A DNA stretch of 64,000 nucleotides, taken from the IMG/VR virus record IMGVR_UViG_3300017763_003980; one strand, given 5' to 3'. The stretch is from a virus (lineage: Duplodnaviria; Caudoviricetes). This document shows, piece by piece, positions 43,805 through 49,119 of this stretch. A program made the translations under genes and the position numbers. The notes under the pieces are model-generated. The model worked only from the letters and a program-made list of their open reading frames with translations. It had not been told where the DNA came from and searched no databases. The number at the start of each line of letters is the position of its first letter. Position 1 is the first letter of the stretch.

Positions 43805-44536
43805 ATGGGTGCTAAACGAGCTTCTCGTAAGAGAAATCAAAATAACAACTTTTCAAATGTTGTACAACTAAACACATCATACACAAAACAAAAACAAAAA
43901 CACGTTACAATACTCCCCCGAAATAGAAATCAAGAAACTTATGTTCTAAAACTGTTAGATGACACCAAGGATATAGTCTTCGGAATCGGACCAGCTGGTA
44001 CAGGTAAAACACTACTAGCAGTTCAGGTCGCAGTTAAACAATTTCTCGAAGGGAAAATTGATAAAATCATTGTTACTAGACCAGCTGTGTCTGTAGACGA
44101 AGATTTAGGATTCTTACCAGGTACGCTAGAACAAAAGATGGCGCCTTGGACTAGACCTATTTTCGATGTATTGCGTGAATATTTCCAAGCAAAGGAAATT
44201 GAAGGTATGATAGAAGAAGGAATTATTGAAATTGCACCGCTTGCATATATGCGTGGGCGTACTTTCAAAAGAAGCTTTATTCTAGCAGATGAAATGCAAA
44301 ACGCAACCCCTAATCAAATGAAAATGTTGCTTACTAGACTAGGTGAAGAAAGTCAAATGGCTGTTACTGGAGATTTAGCACAAGCTGATCGGAAAGCAGA
44401 TAATGGATTAATTGATTTTACTAACTTACTAGCTAAAAGTAATTCAACACATTTGGACATAGTCCACTTCGCTCAAGGAGACATTGAGCGCCATAACGCT
44501 GTTAAGGAGGTGTTACAAGTTTACGGAGATGAATAA
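43805..44536 (+). CDS. phoH: PhoH-like ATPase
   Basis: GPAGTGKT, VTRPAV, LGFLPG, YMRGRTF, DEMQN, TGDLAQAD; SD AAGGAGG. Confidence 0.95.
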   Translation: MGAKRASRKRNQNNNFSNVVQLNTSYTKQKQKHVTILPRNRNQETYVLKLLDDTKDIVFGIGPAGTGKTLLAVQVAVKQFLEGKIDKIIVTRPAVSVDEDLGFLPGTLEQKMAPWTRPIFDVLREYFQAKEIEGMIEEGIIEIAPLAYMRGRTFKRSFILADEMQNATPNQMKMLLTRLGEESQMAVTGDLAQADRKADNGLIDFTNLLAKSNSTHLDIVHFAQGDIERHNAVKEVLQVYGDE

Positions 44537-44539
44537 AAT

Positions 44540-44563
44540 AATTGGGGGATTCGTCCCCCAATT
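44540..44563. terminator. bidirectional terminator between convergent genes
   Basis: Perfect stem AATTGGGGGA-TTCG-TCCCCCAATT with a UUCG loop. Confidence 0.85.
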
Positions 44564-45026
44564 ATATTACTACGTAGATTAATCCGCCGACAATACTAAG
44601 CCCAATACTTACTAAAATTCCTATTAGTATTACGTCAGCTAAAAACTTTTTGCGTTCAGCTAAAGCTCTTGCAGCCTGTAAACGTCTTTGTCTTTCTTTT
44701 TGTCTTGTCCTCATCATAGATTTATACACATCACCTTGACCTGAATACACAAACAATTCTCGTAATTGTTTTTCCATGTCTTTTGTTTTATGCTCAGCTA
44801 ATGCTACTTCTAGTGCATACGACTCGACAGATTGTTTGGAAAACATTTTACTGCCAATAGTAGGATTTTCAGATTCTGTTTTAGCTGTATCTATTTTATC
44901 TTTAGCATCAAAAAAGGTAGAGAACTGACTTGCTAAGTCTTGAGCTTCTCTACCAGCTTTTAACCCTTTGGATATTACATTAACGGCTTTGGAAGCTGCC
45001 GCTATCGCCAAAGATATTTCAACCAT
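44562..45026 (-). CDS. hypothetical protein with a C-terminal TM anchor
   Basis: 154 aa, coiled coil then VILIGILVSIGLSIVGGLIYVVI; TAATG overlap with the pqqA-like stop. Confidence 0.7.
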   Translation of the reverse strand: MVEISLAIAAASKAVNVISKGLKAGREAQDLASQFSTFFDAKDKIDTAKTESENPTIGSKMFSKQSVESYALEVALAEHKTKDMEKQLRELFVYSGQGDVYKSMMRTRQKERQRRLQAARALAERKKFLADVILIGILVSIGLSIVGGLIYVVI

Positions 45027-45097
45027 TACCTCGTTGAAAAATACATAGTGATTTCAAATCCAAGTCTTATATTTTCGTAAGTTGGTTTAGTCCACAT
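45026..45097 (-). CDS. pqqA: PqqA-like PQQ precursor peptide, 23 aa (not in ORF track)
   Basis: MWTKPTYENIRLGFEITMYFSTR. Matches the PqqA pattern W-x-K-P...R-x-G-x-E-x-T-x-Y with the E-x3-Y core. SD AGAGGAGA 5 nt upstream. Confidence 0.88.
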   Translation of the reverse strand: MWTKPTYENIRLGFEITMYFSTR

Positions 45098-45109
45098 AAT
45101 TCTTCTCCT

Positions 45110-46348
45110 CTATAAGTTTTTCCACGTAAATGCTCCAAAGAACATTTCATCTTCTGACATTTGCCCCCAAGGTACACTTCTGCTTGGATCAGGATTCATA
45201 GGATTATCTTCTGAATTATCAAATGCTCCTTCTACATGCAACACAGTACCTGCAGGGATAAATTTAGGTTCACGCCAAGTATATGAAAGTTGCCAAGCAT
45301 AGTCATATTTGGGAATATCTATTAGTTCTTCCCATGTTCCATCTGGATAATATGCTGTTGCTTTCATGCTTTTACCACGAAAATGCATATGCGGTAAAAA
45401 TGTATGTAAGTTTACATTGTTTTGTACAGTTATTTCAGCTTTTTGTACAAAGTTAGGATCATAAGGAGGTATATTTGTCCAAGTGTTAGGGAATATACAA
45501 GCACAATCACCTGCCATTCTTTCTTGAGGTACTACTCCCTCATCATGAAAGTATAAACCAATCCTTGCTTTGTCTGTTCTAGCAGTTCCGTCTGGTGTAT
45601 AGTGTAACTGTAGATTTACAATTGATCCTGCACGTAGTAACCCACCAGTATTTTCGTCATAGTATTCTGGATCGCCGCCAGGAACATATGCACTAATAGT
45701 TGCATAGTTCATATCTCCTTGGCCTTCGCCTTGTGCGCCTAAAAGATTCATATTTCGTTCGCCAGGTAAACTTACTGTATTAAGCATATGATGCATTACT
45801 GTAGGCTCGCTTGGTAAAAACTGTGATCCACGTAGCCAACGATCCTCTGTTAGTCCTAGGTCTGCTTGTGTGTATCTATAAGGTATTGCATTAGGTCCAA
45901 GTGTTCCTATTGCTGGTATTTCTTGTGCTGGTACCTCAATAATCATATCAGGTTCACCATGTACCCATTCTGAAGTTGAGTATACTGTTTCTGTTAGAGG
46001 ATCTCTATCACCTTCTACAGGAGTACCTGCATCAATCCATTGTACAATAGTCTCTATTTCTGTATGACTTAGTGTCCTGTGGTTTATAATACGGTCTGCA
46101 TACACAGGATTTATTTGTCCTGGTGGCATATGTTTAGTTTCAATAGCTTCTTTAATTGCAGGAGCAAATGCTTGTAGCATTTTATAGTTAGTCATTGCCC
46201 ACGGTGCTATACCGTTTTCTCTATGACATGCTTGACACTGCTCTACAAATATAGGTGCTACGTTTTCAGCATAGTCTATATCTACATCTTCATGTGCATA
46301 TGCAACAGATGTTAATAAACTACCTACTAGCAATATTAATTTTTTCAT
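45110..46348 (-). CDS. secreted cytochrome c / copper type II (PHM/DbM-like) monooxygenase
   Basis: Signal peptide (VAYA), CQACH heme motif, CuH ligands MHHM and LHY, CuM ligands PHMH and DEM. Confidence 0.78.
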   Translation of the reverse strand: MKKLILLVGSLLTSVAYAHEDVDIDYAENVAPIFVEQCQACHRENGIAPWAMTNYKMLQAFAPAIKEAIETKHMPPGQINPVYADRIINHRTLSHTEIETIVQWIDAGTPVEGDRDPLTETVYSTSEWVHGEPDMIIEVPAQEIPAIGTLGPNAIPYRYTQADLGLTEDRWLRGSQFLPSEPTVMHHMLNTVSLPGERNMNLLGAQGEGQGDMNYATISAYVPGGDPEYYDENTGGLLRAGSIVNLQLHYTPDGTARTDKARIGLYFHDEGVVPQERMAGDCACIFPNTWTNIPPYDPNFVQKAEITVQNNVNLHTFLPHMHFRGKSMKATAYYPDGTWEELIDIPKYDYAWQLSYTWREPKFIPAGTVLHVEGAFDNSEDNPMNPDPSRSVPWGQMSEDEMFFGAFTWKNL

Positions 46349-47603
46349 TCCTTTCTTCCTTTAGTTTCTCATATCCTTCTTCGTCTAGATGTGTAATAGC
46401 AAGCCAAGCATGTGTCATTTCATCACCTGTTCTTGATCCTCCCATTACCCACATATCAGGGTCTGGATTGTTTGGATTGTTTGCAGTATTATCGTACCAC
46501 TGCTTTAATATAATAACTGCTCCTGCAGGTATTAATGGTGCTACGTCTGGTTCGTACAAATGGCTGTGATGCCATGTTGCACTCCAATTACTTACTTGGC
46601 TAATCTGTTCTGTACGTCCTGTGTTAGGATAGAATATTTCCAAACTTGCTGCGTTCATACGCAAGTGTCCGTGCGGTTGAAAACTATCTAATCTTACAGG
46701 ATGATCAAAACTGTGAAACCCTTGGGTCATATGAAAACCATGCGGGGGGATAACTATATCTGCCTGATCTCCTAAGCGATATAAACTTAAATCTTGTTTG
46801 TATTTCAGTTCTTGGCTTTCCTCTTCGCTGTATAACCAAAGACCAATTTCCACTACGTTGTCTCGAATAACTGATCCTGGTGCCATTGCTCCAAGTCCAC
46901 CTGGGAACATATGTATGTCCCAACGTACTTGCGAGTTCGCCGGTAGTGTACGACATACTCCTTCTGGAACAATCTCTCCCCACTTTCCCATAGCATACTC
47001 CGTGAGCATGCCTTCACGACCTCCGTCGATCACAACATTAGAGTTTGCATGATGTACAACTGATTTTGCATCACCTCTAGGCTTTACTTGGACTGCTTTT
47101 ATACATCTATCTTCAGTTAGCCCTGTTGGTACTAGGTGCTTATGCCACAGATCGTTACCACTTGCTGGAATATCTATTGGAACGCTAGGAATAATTAGAT
47201 TAGGTTGACCAAGGTCACCAGCAAAATTCCATTCGTCAGGGTCAGCAAGATTTGGAGGTTGGACGACTATATCGTTATCTCCATATTGGGAGCCTGAGTC
47301 AACCCAAGCTACTACAGTATCTATTTCTTTTTGTGACAGTCGCCAATCACCTTGTAGGTCTTGTATGCCTATACCGTGATCGTATGCATACGGTGGCATT
47401 TCTCTATTAGCTACTTTCATTTGTATTAAAGGTGCCCACGGACGAACTGCTTCATAGCCTACAAAACTCATAGGACCAATGCCGCCTGGACGATGACATA
47501 CTACACAATTGTCGTTTATTATTTGTGCAACACTATCAGTATAAGTCTGAGCAGATAATGTCATTGGGAATAGCACAGCGAACGCTGCGATTAATTTTCT
47601 CAT
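46320..47603 (-). CDS. secreted cytochrome c / copper type II monooxygenase (paralogue)
   Basis: Signal peptide (TLSA), CVVCH heme motif, VHHA, IHM, PHGH, DEM. Confidence 0.78.
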   Translation of the reverse strand: MRKLIAAFAVLFPMTLSAQTYTDSVAQIINDNCVVCHRPGGIGPMSFVGYEAVRPWAPLIQMKVANREMPPYAYDHGIGIQDLQGDWRLSQKEIDTVVAWVDSGSQYGDNDIVVQPPNLADPDEWNFAGDLGQPNLIIPSVPIDIPASGNDLWHKHLVPTGLTEDRCIKAVQVKPRGDAKSVVHHANSNVVIDGGREGMLTEYAMGKWGEIVPEGVCRTLPANSQVRWDIHMFPGGLGAMAPGSVIRDNVVEIGLWLYSEEESQELKYKQDLSLYRLGDQADIVIPPHGFHMTQGFHSFDHPVRLDSFQPHGHLRMNAASLEIFYPNTGRTEQISQVSNWSATWHHSHLYEPDVAPLIPAGAVIILKQWYDNTANNPNNPDPDMWVMGGSRTGDEMTHAWLAITHLDEEGYEKLKEERNEKINIASR

Positions 47604-47625
47604 AGTAATTCTCCTGGAACTTACT

Positions 47626-47655
47626 AATATTTAAGCACATCTTTTTAAAAATGCA
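47626..47655 (-). promoter_or_regulatory. promoter for the monooxygenase-pqqA operon
   Basis: TTGCAT-N17-TAAATA, which also reads as a late-like TTAAATA; SD CAGGAG downstream; coordinates approximate. Confidence 0.45.
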
Positions 47656-47689
47656 ACCTAAATACTAGCTTTGTTACAAAAGATTACAT

Positions 47690-48442
47690 TTAGTCTAGGT
47701 CGGAAGGAACATCAGTGTCGCGGGCGTCAACTATATAGTTGTTTTTTTCATCTGCCATAAAGAAGCGCCAGCCTTTGAATGTAAGTACTGCTGTTTTTAT
47801 TAATGAATGATATCTTCGACTTGTTGTTTTACTGATATCACCTGTTCTTGCTACTACAGTTTCTCTGGGATATGGTATAACTTGAACCAAAGGAGTGCCT
47901 TGTTTGATAACAAAGTCTTTATTTGTTTTTAGCATTATGTTTATTGGAGTTTGACCTGGTCCTTTATCATGATTGATAGAACCAGGAACAGCTTCAAAGT
48001 AAGGATTTTCGTGAAAAAGCATTGGCAAGTATGTTGTACTCCATCCTTTTTTAGTATACATAATCCACGGATTATCTAATTTGACCGGAGTTTGTAAACT
48101 AAATCTTGTATTTAAAAAATCTCCCATTTGCTCTTTACTGTGATATGCGTGATTGCAATCTGGATCAGAGTATGTAACATGGGGATGGTCGTTTATTATT
48201 TTAACATCAATGTCACACCAAGCAGGTATTACAAATCCTTGTCCTATATAATGTTGCAACCCCGGACAAATTTTGACACTGTAAACATTTTGTTTTTGAA
48301 ATTCTCCCTTATGTAAAACTGTAGGAAGATTTTTAAATTTTTCTGGTATAAATTCTGCCGCGGGTCTAATTGGGCTATACTTCCGTGTTGCCCAATTTTC
48401 ACATTCAAATAATATAGTTGGTTCTGGTTTCTTTTTAAACAT
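47690..48442 (-). CDS. hypothetical protein (DUF6065/dUTPase-like beta fold possible)
   Basis: PWIMYTKKGWS and GTPLVQVIP motifs. Confidence 0.6.
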   Translation of the reverse strand: MFKKKPEPTILFECENWATRKYSPIRPAAEFIPEKFKNLPTVLHKGEFQKQNVYSVKICPGLQHYIGQGFVIPAWCDIDVKIINDHPHVTYSDPDCNHAYHSKEQMGDFLNTRFSLQTPVKLDNPWIMYTKKGWSTTYLPMLFHENPYFEAVPGSINHDKGPGQTPINIMLKTNKDFVIKQGTPLVQVIPYPRETVVARTGDISKTTSRRYHSLIKTAVLTFKGWRFFMADEKNNYIVDARDTDVPSDLD

Positions 48443-49119
48443 CAAAGTTCCTCAATTAGTGGAAATATCTCAGCAATAATCTTAGCACACTCTTTTGCAA
48501 TATCCATATGTTCTTTTTGTGTACCATTTGCACTACGAAGATCGATATAATGTACCCAACTGCGTAATGTGCCATTCATATATAATGTAGTTTTTGTTAA
48601 ACCTTCAGGCAATACTTTACGTGCTACTTCTTTGGCAATACCTGCTTTTATAGCCCAATCATATGCTCTTCCTGCTGTATAACAAACATCTTGTTGTAGT
48701 TCTTCCCAGCGATTAATAAGCTCAGGCATTCCCTCTTCACCGAGATCAATGTCAATCGAGTTTTGTCTATTCTTAGTGTCTTGCAAACGTGCTTCGCTAG
48801 TAACAAATACTTCTCCTTGTTCTTTGGGATCTGCATAACGCTGACTAAACTCTTGGAATGCAAAGCTACGATGTCTAACTATTTGATGTGCAATATCTCT
48901 AGTAGTTTCAATCTCTAAAACAGCATTTACCATTTCTAATGGTGACCAATGTTGATGTTTGATCAGGTACTTAATAAGCTTTTCACTAGTTTCACTGTTA
49001 ATTTGTGCTGAAGGATTACTTACCCTAGCACAAAATGCAATTAAATCTTGAACATTTTCAAGTCCTTCGTCTAAAAATTCCTTGCTGGGTGCATTATAAC
49101 TTACTAATCTAACGGCCAA
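48442..49119 (-). CDS. thyX: flavin-dependent thymidylate synthase
   Basis: HWSPLEM, RHRSFAFQEFSQRY, RSWVHYIDLR, TQKEH. Confidence 0.95.
   Translation of the reverse strand: MAVRLVSYNAPSKEFLDEGLENVQDLIAFCARVSNPSAQINSETSEKLIKYLIKHQHWSPLEMVNAVLEIETTRDIAHQIVRHRSFAFQEFSQRYADPKEQGEVFVTSEARLQDTKNRQNSIDIDLGEEGMPELINRWEELQQDVCYTAGRAYDWAIKAGIAKEVARKVLPEGLTKTTLYMNGTLRSWVHYIDLRSANGTQKEHMDIAKECAKIIAEIFPLIEEL

What the first reader, a model, noticed from the sequence alone, without database searches (positions are those of the whole stretch)
44562..47655. Candidate phage periplasmic redox operon: two monooxygenases, pqqA-like peptide and a membrane anchor
Seen: one promoter candidate (about 47626-47655) precedes monooxygenase 1, monooxygenase 2 (29-nt overlap), pqqA (12-nt gap) and a TM-anchored protein (TAATG coupling), ending at the UUCG terminator (44540-44563). 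The unit looks co-transcribed. Established: PQQ dehydrogenases are periplasmic and pass electrons to c-type cytochromes. Inference A: more PQQ feeds electrons to the heme domains of the phage oxygenases, forming a small phage-installed redox chain. Inference B: PHM-type enzymes act on peptides, so this could be a new RiPP-like pathway that modifies the PqqA-like peptide. Either would be an unusual viral system.
Basis: inference. Interest (0 to 1): 0.85.

Follow-up and report, generated by a model that had tools for sequence, protein, structure and literature searches.

The report
Phage copper monooxygenase and pqqA island
An uncultured giant marine phage carries, as one probable transcription unit, two exported heme-plus-copper oxygenases of a kind not reported from phages, plus the already known viral gene for the PQQ cofactor precursor; the four genes look like loosely assembled cargo, not one fixed pathway.

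Summary
The four minus-strand genes, their junctions and the terminator are exactly as described. The proposed promoter is too weak for a consensus scan, but it lies in an upstream element conserved in 13 contigs.

- **MO1 and MO2:** paralogs (28% identical). Each has a signal peptide, a c-type heme domain (CxxCH plus distal Met) and a PHM/DBH-fold two-copper monooxygenase with all six ligands. Relatives are in at least 243 IMG/VR contigs and in none of 50,697 GenBank phage records.
- **pqqA:** a canonical orphan PQQ precursor gene. This kind was published for viruses in 2020, and this scan has noted it many times on other DNA.
- **TM154:** a tail-anchored protein of unknown function. It also occurs without the oxygenases and on the opposite strand.

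The unit is modular. After dereplication, pqqA follows MO2 in about 4 of 38 MO1 clusters, and its presence varies among near-identical MO1 genes. Only 1 of 120 pqqA-bearing viral contigs has MO2 beside it. Nine loci carry a small c4-like cytochrome c between MO1 and MO2, which supports electron delivery through c-type cytochromes.

Verdict: this is a co-transcribed cargo island. A functional PQQ-to-oxygenase link remains possible (about 0.3). The RiPP idea is unlikely.

The parts
47609..47679 (-). Conserved promoter-like element plus ribosome-binding site upstream of MO1. Blocks: TTGTAAC (47673-47679), GGTTGC (47653-47658, -35-like TTGCAT), TGTGCTTAAATA (47628-47639, extended -10-like) and CAGGAGAA (47609-47616, SD).
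   Evidence: The blocks are invariant in 13 upstream regions from different viral contigs, while the spacers vary in sequence. The sigma-70 consensus scan does not call it. The motifs are not repeated elsewhere in the window above chance.
46320..47603 (-). MO1: 427 aa with a Sec signal peptide, a class I heme c domain (C33, C36, H37, distal M69-P-P) and a PHM/DBH-type two-copper monooxygenase (H184, H185, H231; H311, H313, M396).
   Evidence: ORF. Weak cytochrome c Pfam hits. Ligand columns are at least 97% conserved in 92 homologues. At least 243 IMG/VR contigs hold relatives at 75-90% identity, and 4157 proteins match at E<=1e-5. No match in GenBank phages.
45110..46348 (-). MO2: 412 aa paralog of MO1 (28% identical) with the same architecture: C38, C41, H42, M74; H186, H187, H249; H320, H322, M402.
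   Evidence: AF2 model has pLDDT 89 and pTM 0.85. Foldseek matches PHM structures at E about 1e-12 and DBH 4zel. Swiss-Prot models of PAM, DBH, MOXD1 and TBH match residues 134-411. A profile of the family hits PHM chains at E 2e-5. 11,184 cluster representatives match at E<=1e-3. No match in GenBank phages.
45026..45097 (-). pqqA: 23-aa orphan PQQ precursor peptide, MWTKPTYENIRLGFEITMYFSTR, with the E-x3-Y core.
   Evidence: PF08042 E 3.6e-10 and TIGR02107 E 6.5e-13, both above the curated cut-offs. 16 of 23 residues are identical to a gammaproteobacterial PqqA. The same gene lies in at least 120 viral contigs and in cultured OM43 phages.
44562..45026 (-). TM154: 154-aa protein with a helical N-terminal body, a basic stretch and one C-terminal transmembrane helix (tail-anchored; body predicted cytoplasmic). 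Function unknown. It is a neighbouring phage gene with no shown tie to the oxygenases.
   Evidence: phrog_32327, unknown function, E 2.3e-5. Homologues directly follow MO1 in L030, L075, L079 and L080, but lie on the opposite strand in L029, L033, L037 and L091. Relatives at 26-30% identity occur in Roseobacter phages, which showed no MO1 or MO2 match. The topology is inferred from the positive-inside rule.
44538..44565 (-). Intrinsic terminator hairpin shared with the convergent phoH gene. The TM154 stop codon lies in its stem.
   Evidence: -20.3 kcal/mol, z = -4.9.

Best explanation
This is a cargo (auxiliary metabolic gene) island of an uncultured marine giant phage related to T4-type jumbo phages; related contigs reach about 340 kb. 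It sits in a hypervariable slot between phoH and thyX. It is probably transcribed as one unit, from a conserved promoter-like element upstream of MO1 to the hairpin after TM154.

**The oxygenases.** MO1 and MO2 are exported to the host periplasm. There the host cytochrome c maturation system attaches heme to the CxxCH motif, and each enzyme binds two coppers in a PHM/DBH-type catalytic core. In place of ascorbate, the built-in heme c domain most likely takes electrons from the periplasmic c-type cytochrome pool and passes them to the CuH site. O2 would then be activated at CuM to hydroxylate a periplasmic substrate that is still unknown.

**pqqA.** It is an independent and separable cargo gene. 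Its peptide would be consumed in the cytoplasm by the host's PqqB-E enzymes to make more PQQ for host periplasmic quinoprotein dehydrogenases.

**TM154.** It is a phage membrane protein of unknown function and is not specific to this unit.

**Shown:** gene structure, protein folds, ligand sets, the identity of pqqA, the modular distribution, and the presence of these sequences in RNA libraries.

**Inferred:** export, heme and copper loading, the electron path, the substrate class, the use of host Pqq enzymes, and transcription as a single RNA.
For: - **Anatomy:**
- **Phage identity:** the polymerase is 41-50% identical to those of jumbo phages (Phosso, Atu_ph07, Vibrio 2.275.O). A related contig of 339,794 bp is rated 91% complete.
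- **MO fold and ligands:**
- **Cellular homologues:** they add an N-terminal redoxin domain that the phage forms lack.
- **Modularity:** among 65 informative MO1 loci, 27 have MO1 only, 27 have MO1+MO2 and 11 have MO1+MO2+pqqA. After 95% dereplication the counts are 15, 19 and 2, plus 2 mixed clusters. The window's nearest MO2 (L002, 89%) lacks pqqA through a clean indel.
- **Optional island:** in 31 of 62 loci with the same phoH backbone, thyX directly abuts phoH, so the whole island is optional.
- **pqqA alone:** 119 of 120 pqqA-bearing viral contigs have no MO2 beside it. A 356-kb, 96%-complete phage with pqqA has no MO.
- **Rest of the PQQ system missing:** related jumbo phages have no PqqE hit, no PqqC hit and no PQQ-repeat dehydrogenase.
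- **Dosage matters in cells:** many Gammaproteobacteria carry several pqqA copies, up to 8, which suggests that precursor supply is limiting.
- **Prior report:** viral pqqA was published in PMC7678222.
- **Electron supply:** a small c4/c552-like cytochrome c lies between MO1 and MO2 in 9 loci.
Against: - **pqqA recurs at the cassette:** it sits at the 3' end of the MO cassette in several arrangements. These are MO2-12/14 nt-pqqA, MO2-142 nt-pqqA, and MO1-two lipoproteins-pqqA without MO2 in L255. This could reflect a functional tie instead of shared descent.
- **No biochemistry:** no substrate, heme or copper content, or electron donor has been measured for any member of this protein family.
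- **Transcription not shown directly:** there are no raw RNA reads, and no RNA contig covers pqqA.
- **Host unknown:** so it is not known whether the host has pqqB-E.
Confidence: 0.55

Rival explanations
1. Integrated redox chain. Extra PqqA raises host PQQ. More holo-quinoprotein dehydrogenase then reduces periplasmic c-type cytochromes, or PQQH2 itself acts as an ascorbate-like reductant. Those electrons drive MO1 and MO2, so pqqA is an electron-supply accessory of the oxygenases.
For: The cassette's optional accessories both bear on periplasmic electron supply: a small c4-like cytochrome c in 9 loci and pqqA in 11 loci. pqqA stays next to MO genes in at least three different arrangements, including one without MO2. 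The pqqA-linked MO2 genes are scattered on the MO2 tree. Five of six sampled Gammaproteobacteria with a long-form MO homologue also have pqqA.
Against: pqqA is lost or gained among MO1 genes that are at least 95% identical, and it is absent from most MO cassettes. Most viral pqqA copies have no MO nearby, and one near-complete pqqA phage has none. The five bacterial co-occurrences share the same gene neighbours (Acyl_transf_3, AprA_N), so they are probably one lineage. Their two genes also lie on different contigs.
Confidence: 0.3
2. RiPP-like pathway. The PHM-type oxygenases hydroxylate or cross-link the PqqA-like peptide to make a new product.
For: PHM acts on peptides. A precursor-sized peptide gene lies 12 nt after MO2 in the window.
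Against: The peptide scores as an equivalog-level PqqA and is 16/23 identical to a cellular PqqA. It has no signal peptide, whereas both oxygenases have one and need periplasmic heme c attachment. Most MO cassettes have no peptide gene in that position. Most pqqA copies have no oxygenase nearby.
Confidence: 0.03
3. MO1 and MO2 are not substrate hydroxylases. They act as periplasmic electron sinks or detoxifiers, for example by reducing O2 or peroxide or by handling copper, to condition the infected cell's envelope redox state.
For: Most cellular homologues carry an N-terminal AhpC/TSA-redoxin domain and are auto-named peroxiredoxin or alkyl hydroperoxide reductase.
Against: The phage forms have lost that redoxin domain but keep the full PHM ligand set, including the CuM methionine typical of substrate-hydroxylating enzymes. 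Known PHM-family members couple O2 reduction tightly to substrate hydroxylation (established knowledge; PMC9064607 abstract).
Confidence: 0.1

Closest known systems
Virus-encoded orphan pqqA (Lake Baikal methylotroph phages, Coutinho et al. 2020, PMC7678222; also present in cultured OM43 phages Melnitz, Venkman, MEP401/402)
   Same: A 23-24 codon stand-alone pqqA with an intact E-x3-Y core and no other pqq genes in the phage.
   Different: The peptide is of a gammaproteobacterial type (RLGFEITMYF), not the Methylophilaceae type (RFGFEVTMYVMNK). Here it lies inside an oxygenase cassette of a jumbo phage.
Peptidylglycine alpha-hydroxylating monooxygenase / dopamine beta-hydroxylase family (copper type II ascorbate-dependent monooxygenases; PDB 1PHM, 3MLL, 4ZEL)
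   Same: The same two-domain beta-sandwich fold and the same ligand pattern, HH...H and HxH...M, with similar spacing.
   Different: Only 13-19% sequence identity. The proteins are viral or bacterial and periplasmic. A c-type heme domain is fused N-terminally and presumably replaces ascorbate as electron source. There is no DOMON or lyase domain. The substrate is unknown.
Uncharacterised bacterial redoxin - cytochrome c - PHM-like fusion proteins (about 560-690 aa; auto-named peroxiredoxin, thioredoxin domain protein or ascorbate-dependent monooxygenase)
   Same: 35-53% identical over the heme and copper domains, TM 0.8 to predicted models, and the same invariant ligands.
   Different: The phage proteins lack the N-terminal AhpC/TSA-redoxin domain. 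They occur as a tandem of two divergent paralogs, sometimes with a separate small cytochrome c.
Quinoprotein dehydrogenase to cytochrome c chains (methanol dehydrogenase-cytochrome cL; ethanol dehydrogenase-cytochrome c550). Named from established knowledge.
   Same: Periplasmic location and c-type cytochromes as electron carriers, which is the basis of inference A.
   Different: No PQQ-repeat dehydrogenase was found in four related phage contigs, one of them 91% complete; the window itself was not scanned for one. Any such chain would rely wholly on host enzymes.
Hypervariable cargo (AMG) islands of T4-like marine phages. Named from established knowledge.
   Same: An optional gene block at a fixed backbone junction (phoH|thyX), with content differing among close relatives.
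   Different: The cargo here (heme-copper oxygenases) has no match in GenBank phage records.

Membership tests
PqqA (PF08042 / TIGR02107) | Profile score above the curated cut-off | tested here: met
   40 bits against 21.1; 48.2 bits against 20, equivalog model.
PqqA (PF08042 / TIGR02107) | Conserved Glu-x3-Tyr pair that becomes PQQ | tested here: met
   E16-I-T-M-Y20 in the translation. The same core is in the cellular copies.
PqqA (PF08042 / TIGR02107) | Processed to PQQ by PqqB-E | not testable with these tools
   No PqqE or PqqC in related phage genomes (the PqqC search had no positive control). The host is unknown.
PHM/DBH copper type II monooxygenases (PF01082 + PF03712) | Two-domain beta-sandwich catalytic core | tested here: met
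   The AF2 model (pLDDT 89) matches PHM and DBH structures at E 1e-10 to 1e-12, probability 1.0.
PHM/DBH copper type II monooxygenases (PF01082 + PF03712) | CuH ligands (three His) and CuM ligands (two His plus Met) | tested here: met
   MO2 has H186, H187, H249 and H320, H322, M402. MO1 has H184, H185, H231 and H311, H313, M396. These columns are 97-100% conserved in 92 sequences. Assignment to the PHM sites rests on pattern, spacing and fold; no residue-level structural alignment was available.
PHM/DBH copper type II monooxygenases (PF01082 + PF03712) | Pfam gathering score | tested here: not met
   MO2 scores 16 bits against a cut-off of 23, and MO1 has no hit. Several cellular homologues pass. 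These are therefore distant relatives, filed as PHM-like rather than as Pfam-defined members.
PHM/DBH copper type II monooxygenases (PF01082 + PF03712) | Copper content, O2-dependent hydroxylation and ascorbate dependence | not testable with these tools
   Needs purified protein.
Class I c-type cytochrome domain | CxxCH heme attachment motif, distal Met, and an export signal | tested here: met
   CVVCH and CQACH, with M-P-P 32 residues after the motif His, near-invariant in the family. The N-termini MRKLIAAFAVLFPMTLSA and MKKLILLVGSLLTSVAYA look like Sec signals by inspection. Pfam scores are below the cut-offs.
RiPP biosynthetic gene cluster | Precursor peptide and tailoring enzyme conserved together and acting in the same compartment | tested here: not met
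   Linkage is seen in a minority of loci only. The peptide has no signal sequence, while the enzymes are exported (sequence inspection, inference).
Single operon | One promoter, no internal terminator, one terminator, and a transcript spanning all genes | tested here: inconclusive
   A conserved promoter-like element, tight junctions and a single strong terminator fit an operon. Only the MO1/MO2 junction is bridged by an RNA-library contig.

The most novel reading that the evidence does not exclude
Marine phages install a self-contained periplasmic hydroxylation system built on a previously uncharacterised enzyme class: PHM-type copper monooxygenases that use a fused heme c in place of ascorbate. 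Optional accessories tune its electron supply. These are a small c4-like cytochrome c, or pqqA to raise PQQ, with PQQ dehydrogenases or PQQH2 as the ultimate reductant.
Probability: 0.25. Interest if true: 0.8.

Novelty: new variant of a known kind. Interest (0 to 1): 0.58.

Why it matters
PHM/DBH-type copper monooxygenases are known almost only from animals, where ascorbate supplies the electrons. Here a very large bacterial and viral family (11,184 cluster representatives) keeps the full copper ligand set and is fused to a c-type heme. No member has been studied. Marine phages carry stripped-down versions, often two per genome.

This gives a compact, expressible starting point (about 410 aa, no redoxin domain) for finding out what these enzymes hydroxylate and why a phage needs that in the host periplasm.

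It also shows that viral pqqA is not restricted to methylotroph phages, and it defines a concrete, testable question: does PQQ feed these oxygenases? If the genes are only neighbours in a cargo island, the pqqA part is ordinary and the oxygenases remain the interesting part.

Tried and rejected
- **GenBank phage searches.** blastn of the whole unit and tblastn of MO1 and MO2 against 50,697 records gave no match, so no cultured reference exists.
- **Species-representative genomes.** The scan with MO2 gave one locus, L201, from a Pseudomonadales MAG. I rejected it as a host clue. GC drops from 0.62 to 0.40 at the MO genes and MO1 is truncated there, which points to a chimeric contig or a recent transfer. 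A PQQ-type GSDH gene on that contig is therefore not used.
- **PqqC family search.** It found nothing, and no control genome rang either, so it is uninformative.
- **Genome-level co-occurrence in 400 Gammaproteobacteria.** Five of six MO-bearing genomes have pqqA. I do not count this as independent evidence, because the five share the same neighbouring genes and the two genes lie on different contigs.
- **RNA-library contigs.** There is no cover over pqqA or upstream of 47603. Holes in contig cover prove nothing, so they are not used. Two of the four libraries are oligo-dT, so DNA or internal priming cannot be excluded.
- **tblastn of ORFs flanking cellular pqqA against the window.** It found only pqqA itself and an unrelated ORF in the sugar-nucleotide region. 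This is a weak test for PqqB and PqqC.
- **TM154 as a periplasmic anchor.** Rejected on predicted topology and distribution.
- **Complex prediction.** Not run. PqqA is shorter than the tool's 30-residue minimum, and I make no binding claim for MO1-MO2.
- **Literature searches.** Searches for the Pfam names or accessions, or for ascorbate-dependent monooxygenase together with phage, returned nothing relevant.


Full report
**1. The observation**

All four minus-strand ORFs exist at the stated coordinates:
- MO1: 46320-47603, 427 aa
- MO2: 45110-46348, 412 aa
- pqqA: 45026-45097, 23 aa
- TM154: 44562-45026, 154 aa

MO1 and MO2 overlap by 29 nt. MO2 and pqqA are 12 nt apart, with a strong GAGGAGAA ribosome-binding site. 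The pqqA stop overlaps the TM154 start as TAATG.

The only minus-strand terminator-like site in the unit is the 12-bp hairpin at 44538-44565 with a T-run. It folds at -20.3 kcal/mol, z = -4.9. It is shared with the convergent phoH gene (43805-44536).

The consensus scan does not call the proposed promoter. However, 13 upstream regions from different viral contigs align with invariant blocks separated by spacers of constant length and variable sequence. The blocks are TTGTAAC, GGTTGC, TG-n-TTAAATA and CAGGAGAA. This is how a conserved promoter with an extended -10 would look, and it travels with MO1. In other contigs MO1 is preceded by TATAAATA, a T4-late-like motif.

**2. What the window is**

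The window is a phage. Its family B DNA polymerase is 41-50% identical to those of jumbo phages Phosso, Atu_ph07 and Vibrio 2.275.O. A virion-protein PHROG, phoH and thyX flank the unit. Related IMG/VR contigs reach 339,794 bp at 91% estimated completeness. DNA runs holding the stretch are seawater, marine and viral metagenomes.

**3. The two large proteins**

- **Sequence searches.** Pfam gives only weak cytochrome c and Cu2_monoox_C hits. NCBIfam and PHROGs give nothing.
- **Family size.** An exhaustive search finds 11,184 cluster representatives at E<=1e-3. Most are 560-690 aa and add an N-terminal AhpC/TSA-redoxin domain.
- **Conserved residues.** In a 92-sequence alignment the near-invariant residues are exactly CxxCH, a distal Met-Pro-Pro, HH...H and HxH...M. 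Both MO1 and MO2 have all of them.
- **Fold.** The AF2 model of MO2 (pLDDT 89, pTM 0.85) matches PHM and DBH structures at E 1e-10 to 1e-12 over residues 134-411. A profile of the family hits PHM chains at E 2e-5.
- **Annotation of relatives.** AlphaFold DB relatives are unnamed or automatically named. I found no paper on them.
- **Export.** Both N-termini look like Sec signal peptides by inspection.

I therefore read MO1 and MO2 as exported heme c / two-copper monooxygenase fusions. They are PHM-like in mechanism but not Pfam-level members.

**4. pqqA**

pqqA passes the equivalog cut-off and is 16/23 identical to a cellular gammaproteobacterial PqqA.

They represent many contexts, including small phages where pqqA lies next to capsid genes. 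Cultured OM43 phages hold it too. Viral pqqA was published in 2020 (PMC7678222).

Related jumbo contigs that carry pqqA have no PqqE hit, no PqqC hit and no PQQ-repeat protein. In 400 sampled Gammaproteobacteria, 63 have pqqA, often in several copies. That fits the view that precursor dosage matters.

**5. Linkage**

| Sample | Result |
|---|---|
| 80 MO1-seeded loci, 65 informative | 27 MO1 only; 27 MO1+MO2; 11 MO1+MO2+pqqA |
| Same loci dereplicated at 95% nt, 38 informative clusters | 15 MO1 only; 19 MO1+MO2; 2 with pqqA; 2 mixed |
| 120 pqqA-seeded contigs | 1 has MO2 beside pqqA |
| 356-kb, 96%-complete pqqA phage | no MO |
| 230-kb MO1 contig | no pqqA |

The two mixed clusters show that nearly identical MO1 genes occur with and without pqqA or MO2. 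The window's closest MO2 (L002, 89%) lacks pqqA through a clean indel.

Among 62 loci with the same phoH backbone, thyX directly abuts phoH in 31. Only one of the 62 has MO1; a further backbone locus with a shorter flank, L255, has it as well. The whole block is therefore optional cargo at a hot spot.

Against pure coincidence, pqqA recurs at the 3' end of the cassette in several layouts. One of them is L255, where MO1 (93% identical) is followed by two small lipoproteins and then pqqA, without MO2 or TM154.

**6. Accessory genes**

Nine loci carry a 100-123 aa secreted monoheme cytochrome c between MO1 and MO2. It passes the PF00034 cut-off and is most like cytochromes c4, c552 and c554. This is the best evidence that the oxygenases draw electrons from soluble c-type cytochromes.

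Other loci have an IscA-like gene downstream, which has no obvious connection to the oxygenases.

TM154 homologues follow MO1 directly in four loci and lie on the opposite strand in four others. They also occur in Roseobacter phages, which showed no MO1 or MO2 match. The basic stretch before the C-terminal helix predicts a cytoplasmic body. It is therefore not a periplasmic anchor.

**7. Expression**

RNA libraries of three studies contain 99-100% identical contigs within MO1, MO2 and TM154. One contig (46232-46412) bridges the MO1/MO2 junction. Contigs cannot show strand, ends or a single transcript, and DNA carry-over is possible. This is weak support.

**8. Verdict**

The anatomy is confirmed. 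The best reading is a co-transcribed but modular cargo island with three parts:
- two exported heme-copper monooxygenases of unknown substrate, fed by c-type cytochromes;
- an orphan pqqA that supplies precursor to host PQQ synthesis;
- an unrelated membrane protein.

A functional PQQ-to-oxygenase link (inference A) is possible, at about 0.3. The RiPP idea (inference B) is unlikely, at about 0.03.

The oxygenases are the novel element. They are widespread in uncultured marine viral contigs, absent from GenBank phage records, and unstudied in any organism as far as the searched library shows. Earlier notes of this scan had already recorded viral pqqA many times and a similar oxygenase tandem in one other genome.

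Noticed in passing
L010:2138-2476, L024:1224-1529, L023:4348-4719, L058:4853-5176 (also L025, L051-L053, L062): A small (100-123 aa) secreted monoheme cytochrome c, most like c4/c552/c554, sits between MO1 and MO2 in 9 of 80 related viral loci. The window has no copy in its 64 kb.
   Followed up: yes
window 47609-47679 and alignment A2: A three-block conserved upstream element (TTGTAAC, GGTTGC, TG-n-TTAAATA) travels with MO1 across contigs. In many contigs, upstream TGCAAC and downstream GTTGCA form an inverted pair that could be an operator. Other contigs use TATAAATA instead.
   Followed up: partly
L255:7754-8278: In the closest MO1 relative (93%), the slot between MO1 and phoH holds two small lipobox proteins (57 and 73 aa), pqqA and a 27-aa hydrophobic peptide in place of MO2 and TM154.
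   Followed up: partly
L001:4158-4535 and equivalents in L002, L004, L007, L009, L023, L025, L068: An IscA/HesB-type Fe-S assembly gene (PF01521) lies about 350-440 nt downstream of MO2 in one group of phages.
   Followed up: partly
L254-L333 (phoH backbone loci): The phoH|thyX junction of this phage group is a hypervariable cargo slot. thyX abuts phoH in half of the loci, and 26 others hold unrelated cargo within 7 kb.
   Followed up: partly
L201 (Pseudomonadales MAG contig, 6996 nt): The contig joins a GC 0.62 bacterial part (DUF1552 and a cytochrome c-GSDH-like gene) to a GC 0.40 part with a truncated MO1 and a full MO2 (76% identical). It is probably chimeric or a recent transfer. The same MAG (G005) gave 64 matches to the PQQ_2 repeat family, spread over roughly 30 reading frames.
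   Followed up: partly
genomes G381, G231 and others: Several Gammaproteobacteria genomes carry 4-8 dispersed pqqA copies.
   Followed up: no
L246-L250: In five gammaproteobacterial genomes, the long-form redoxin-heme-copper oxygenase gene is flanked by an Acyl_transf_3 membrane acyltransferase and an AprA_N-domain gene. This is a possible hint to the cellular substrate.
   Followed up: partly
window 47690-48445: The 251-aa gene upstream of MO1 (phrog_7084, unknown function) is itself optional in the backbone. It is present in only a few phoH-linked loci.
   Followed up: no
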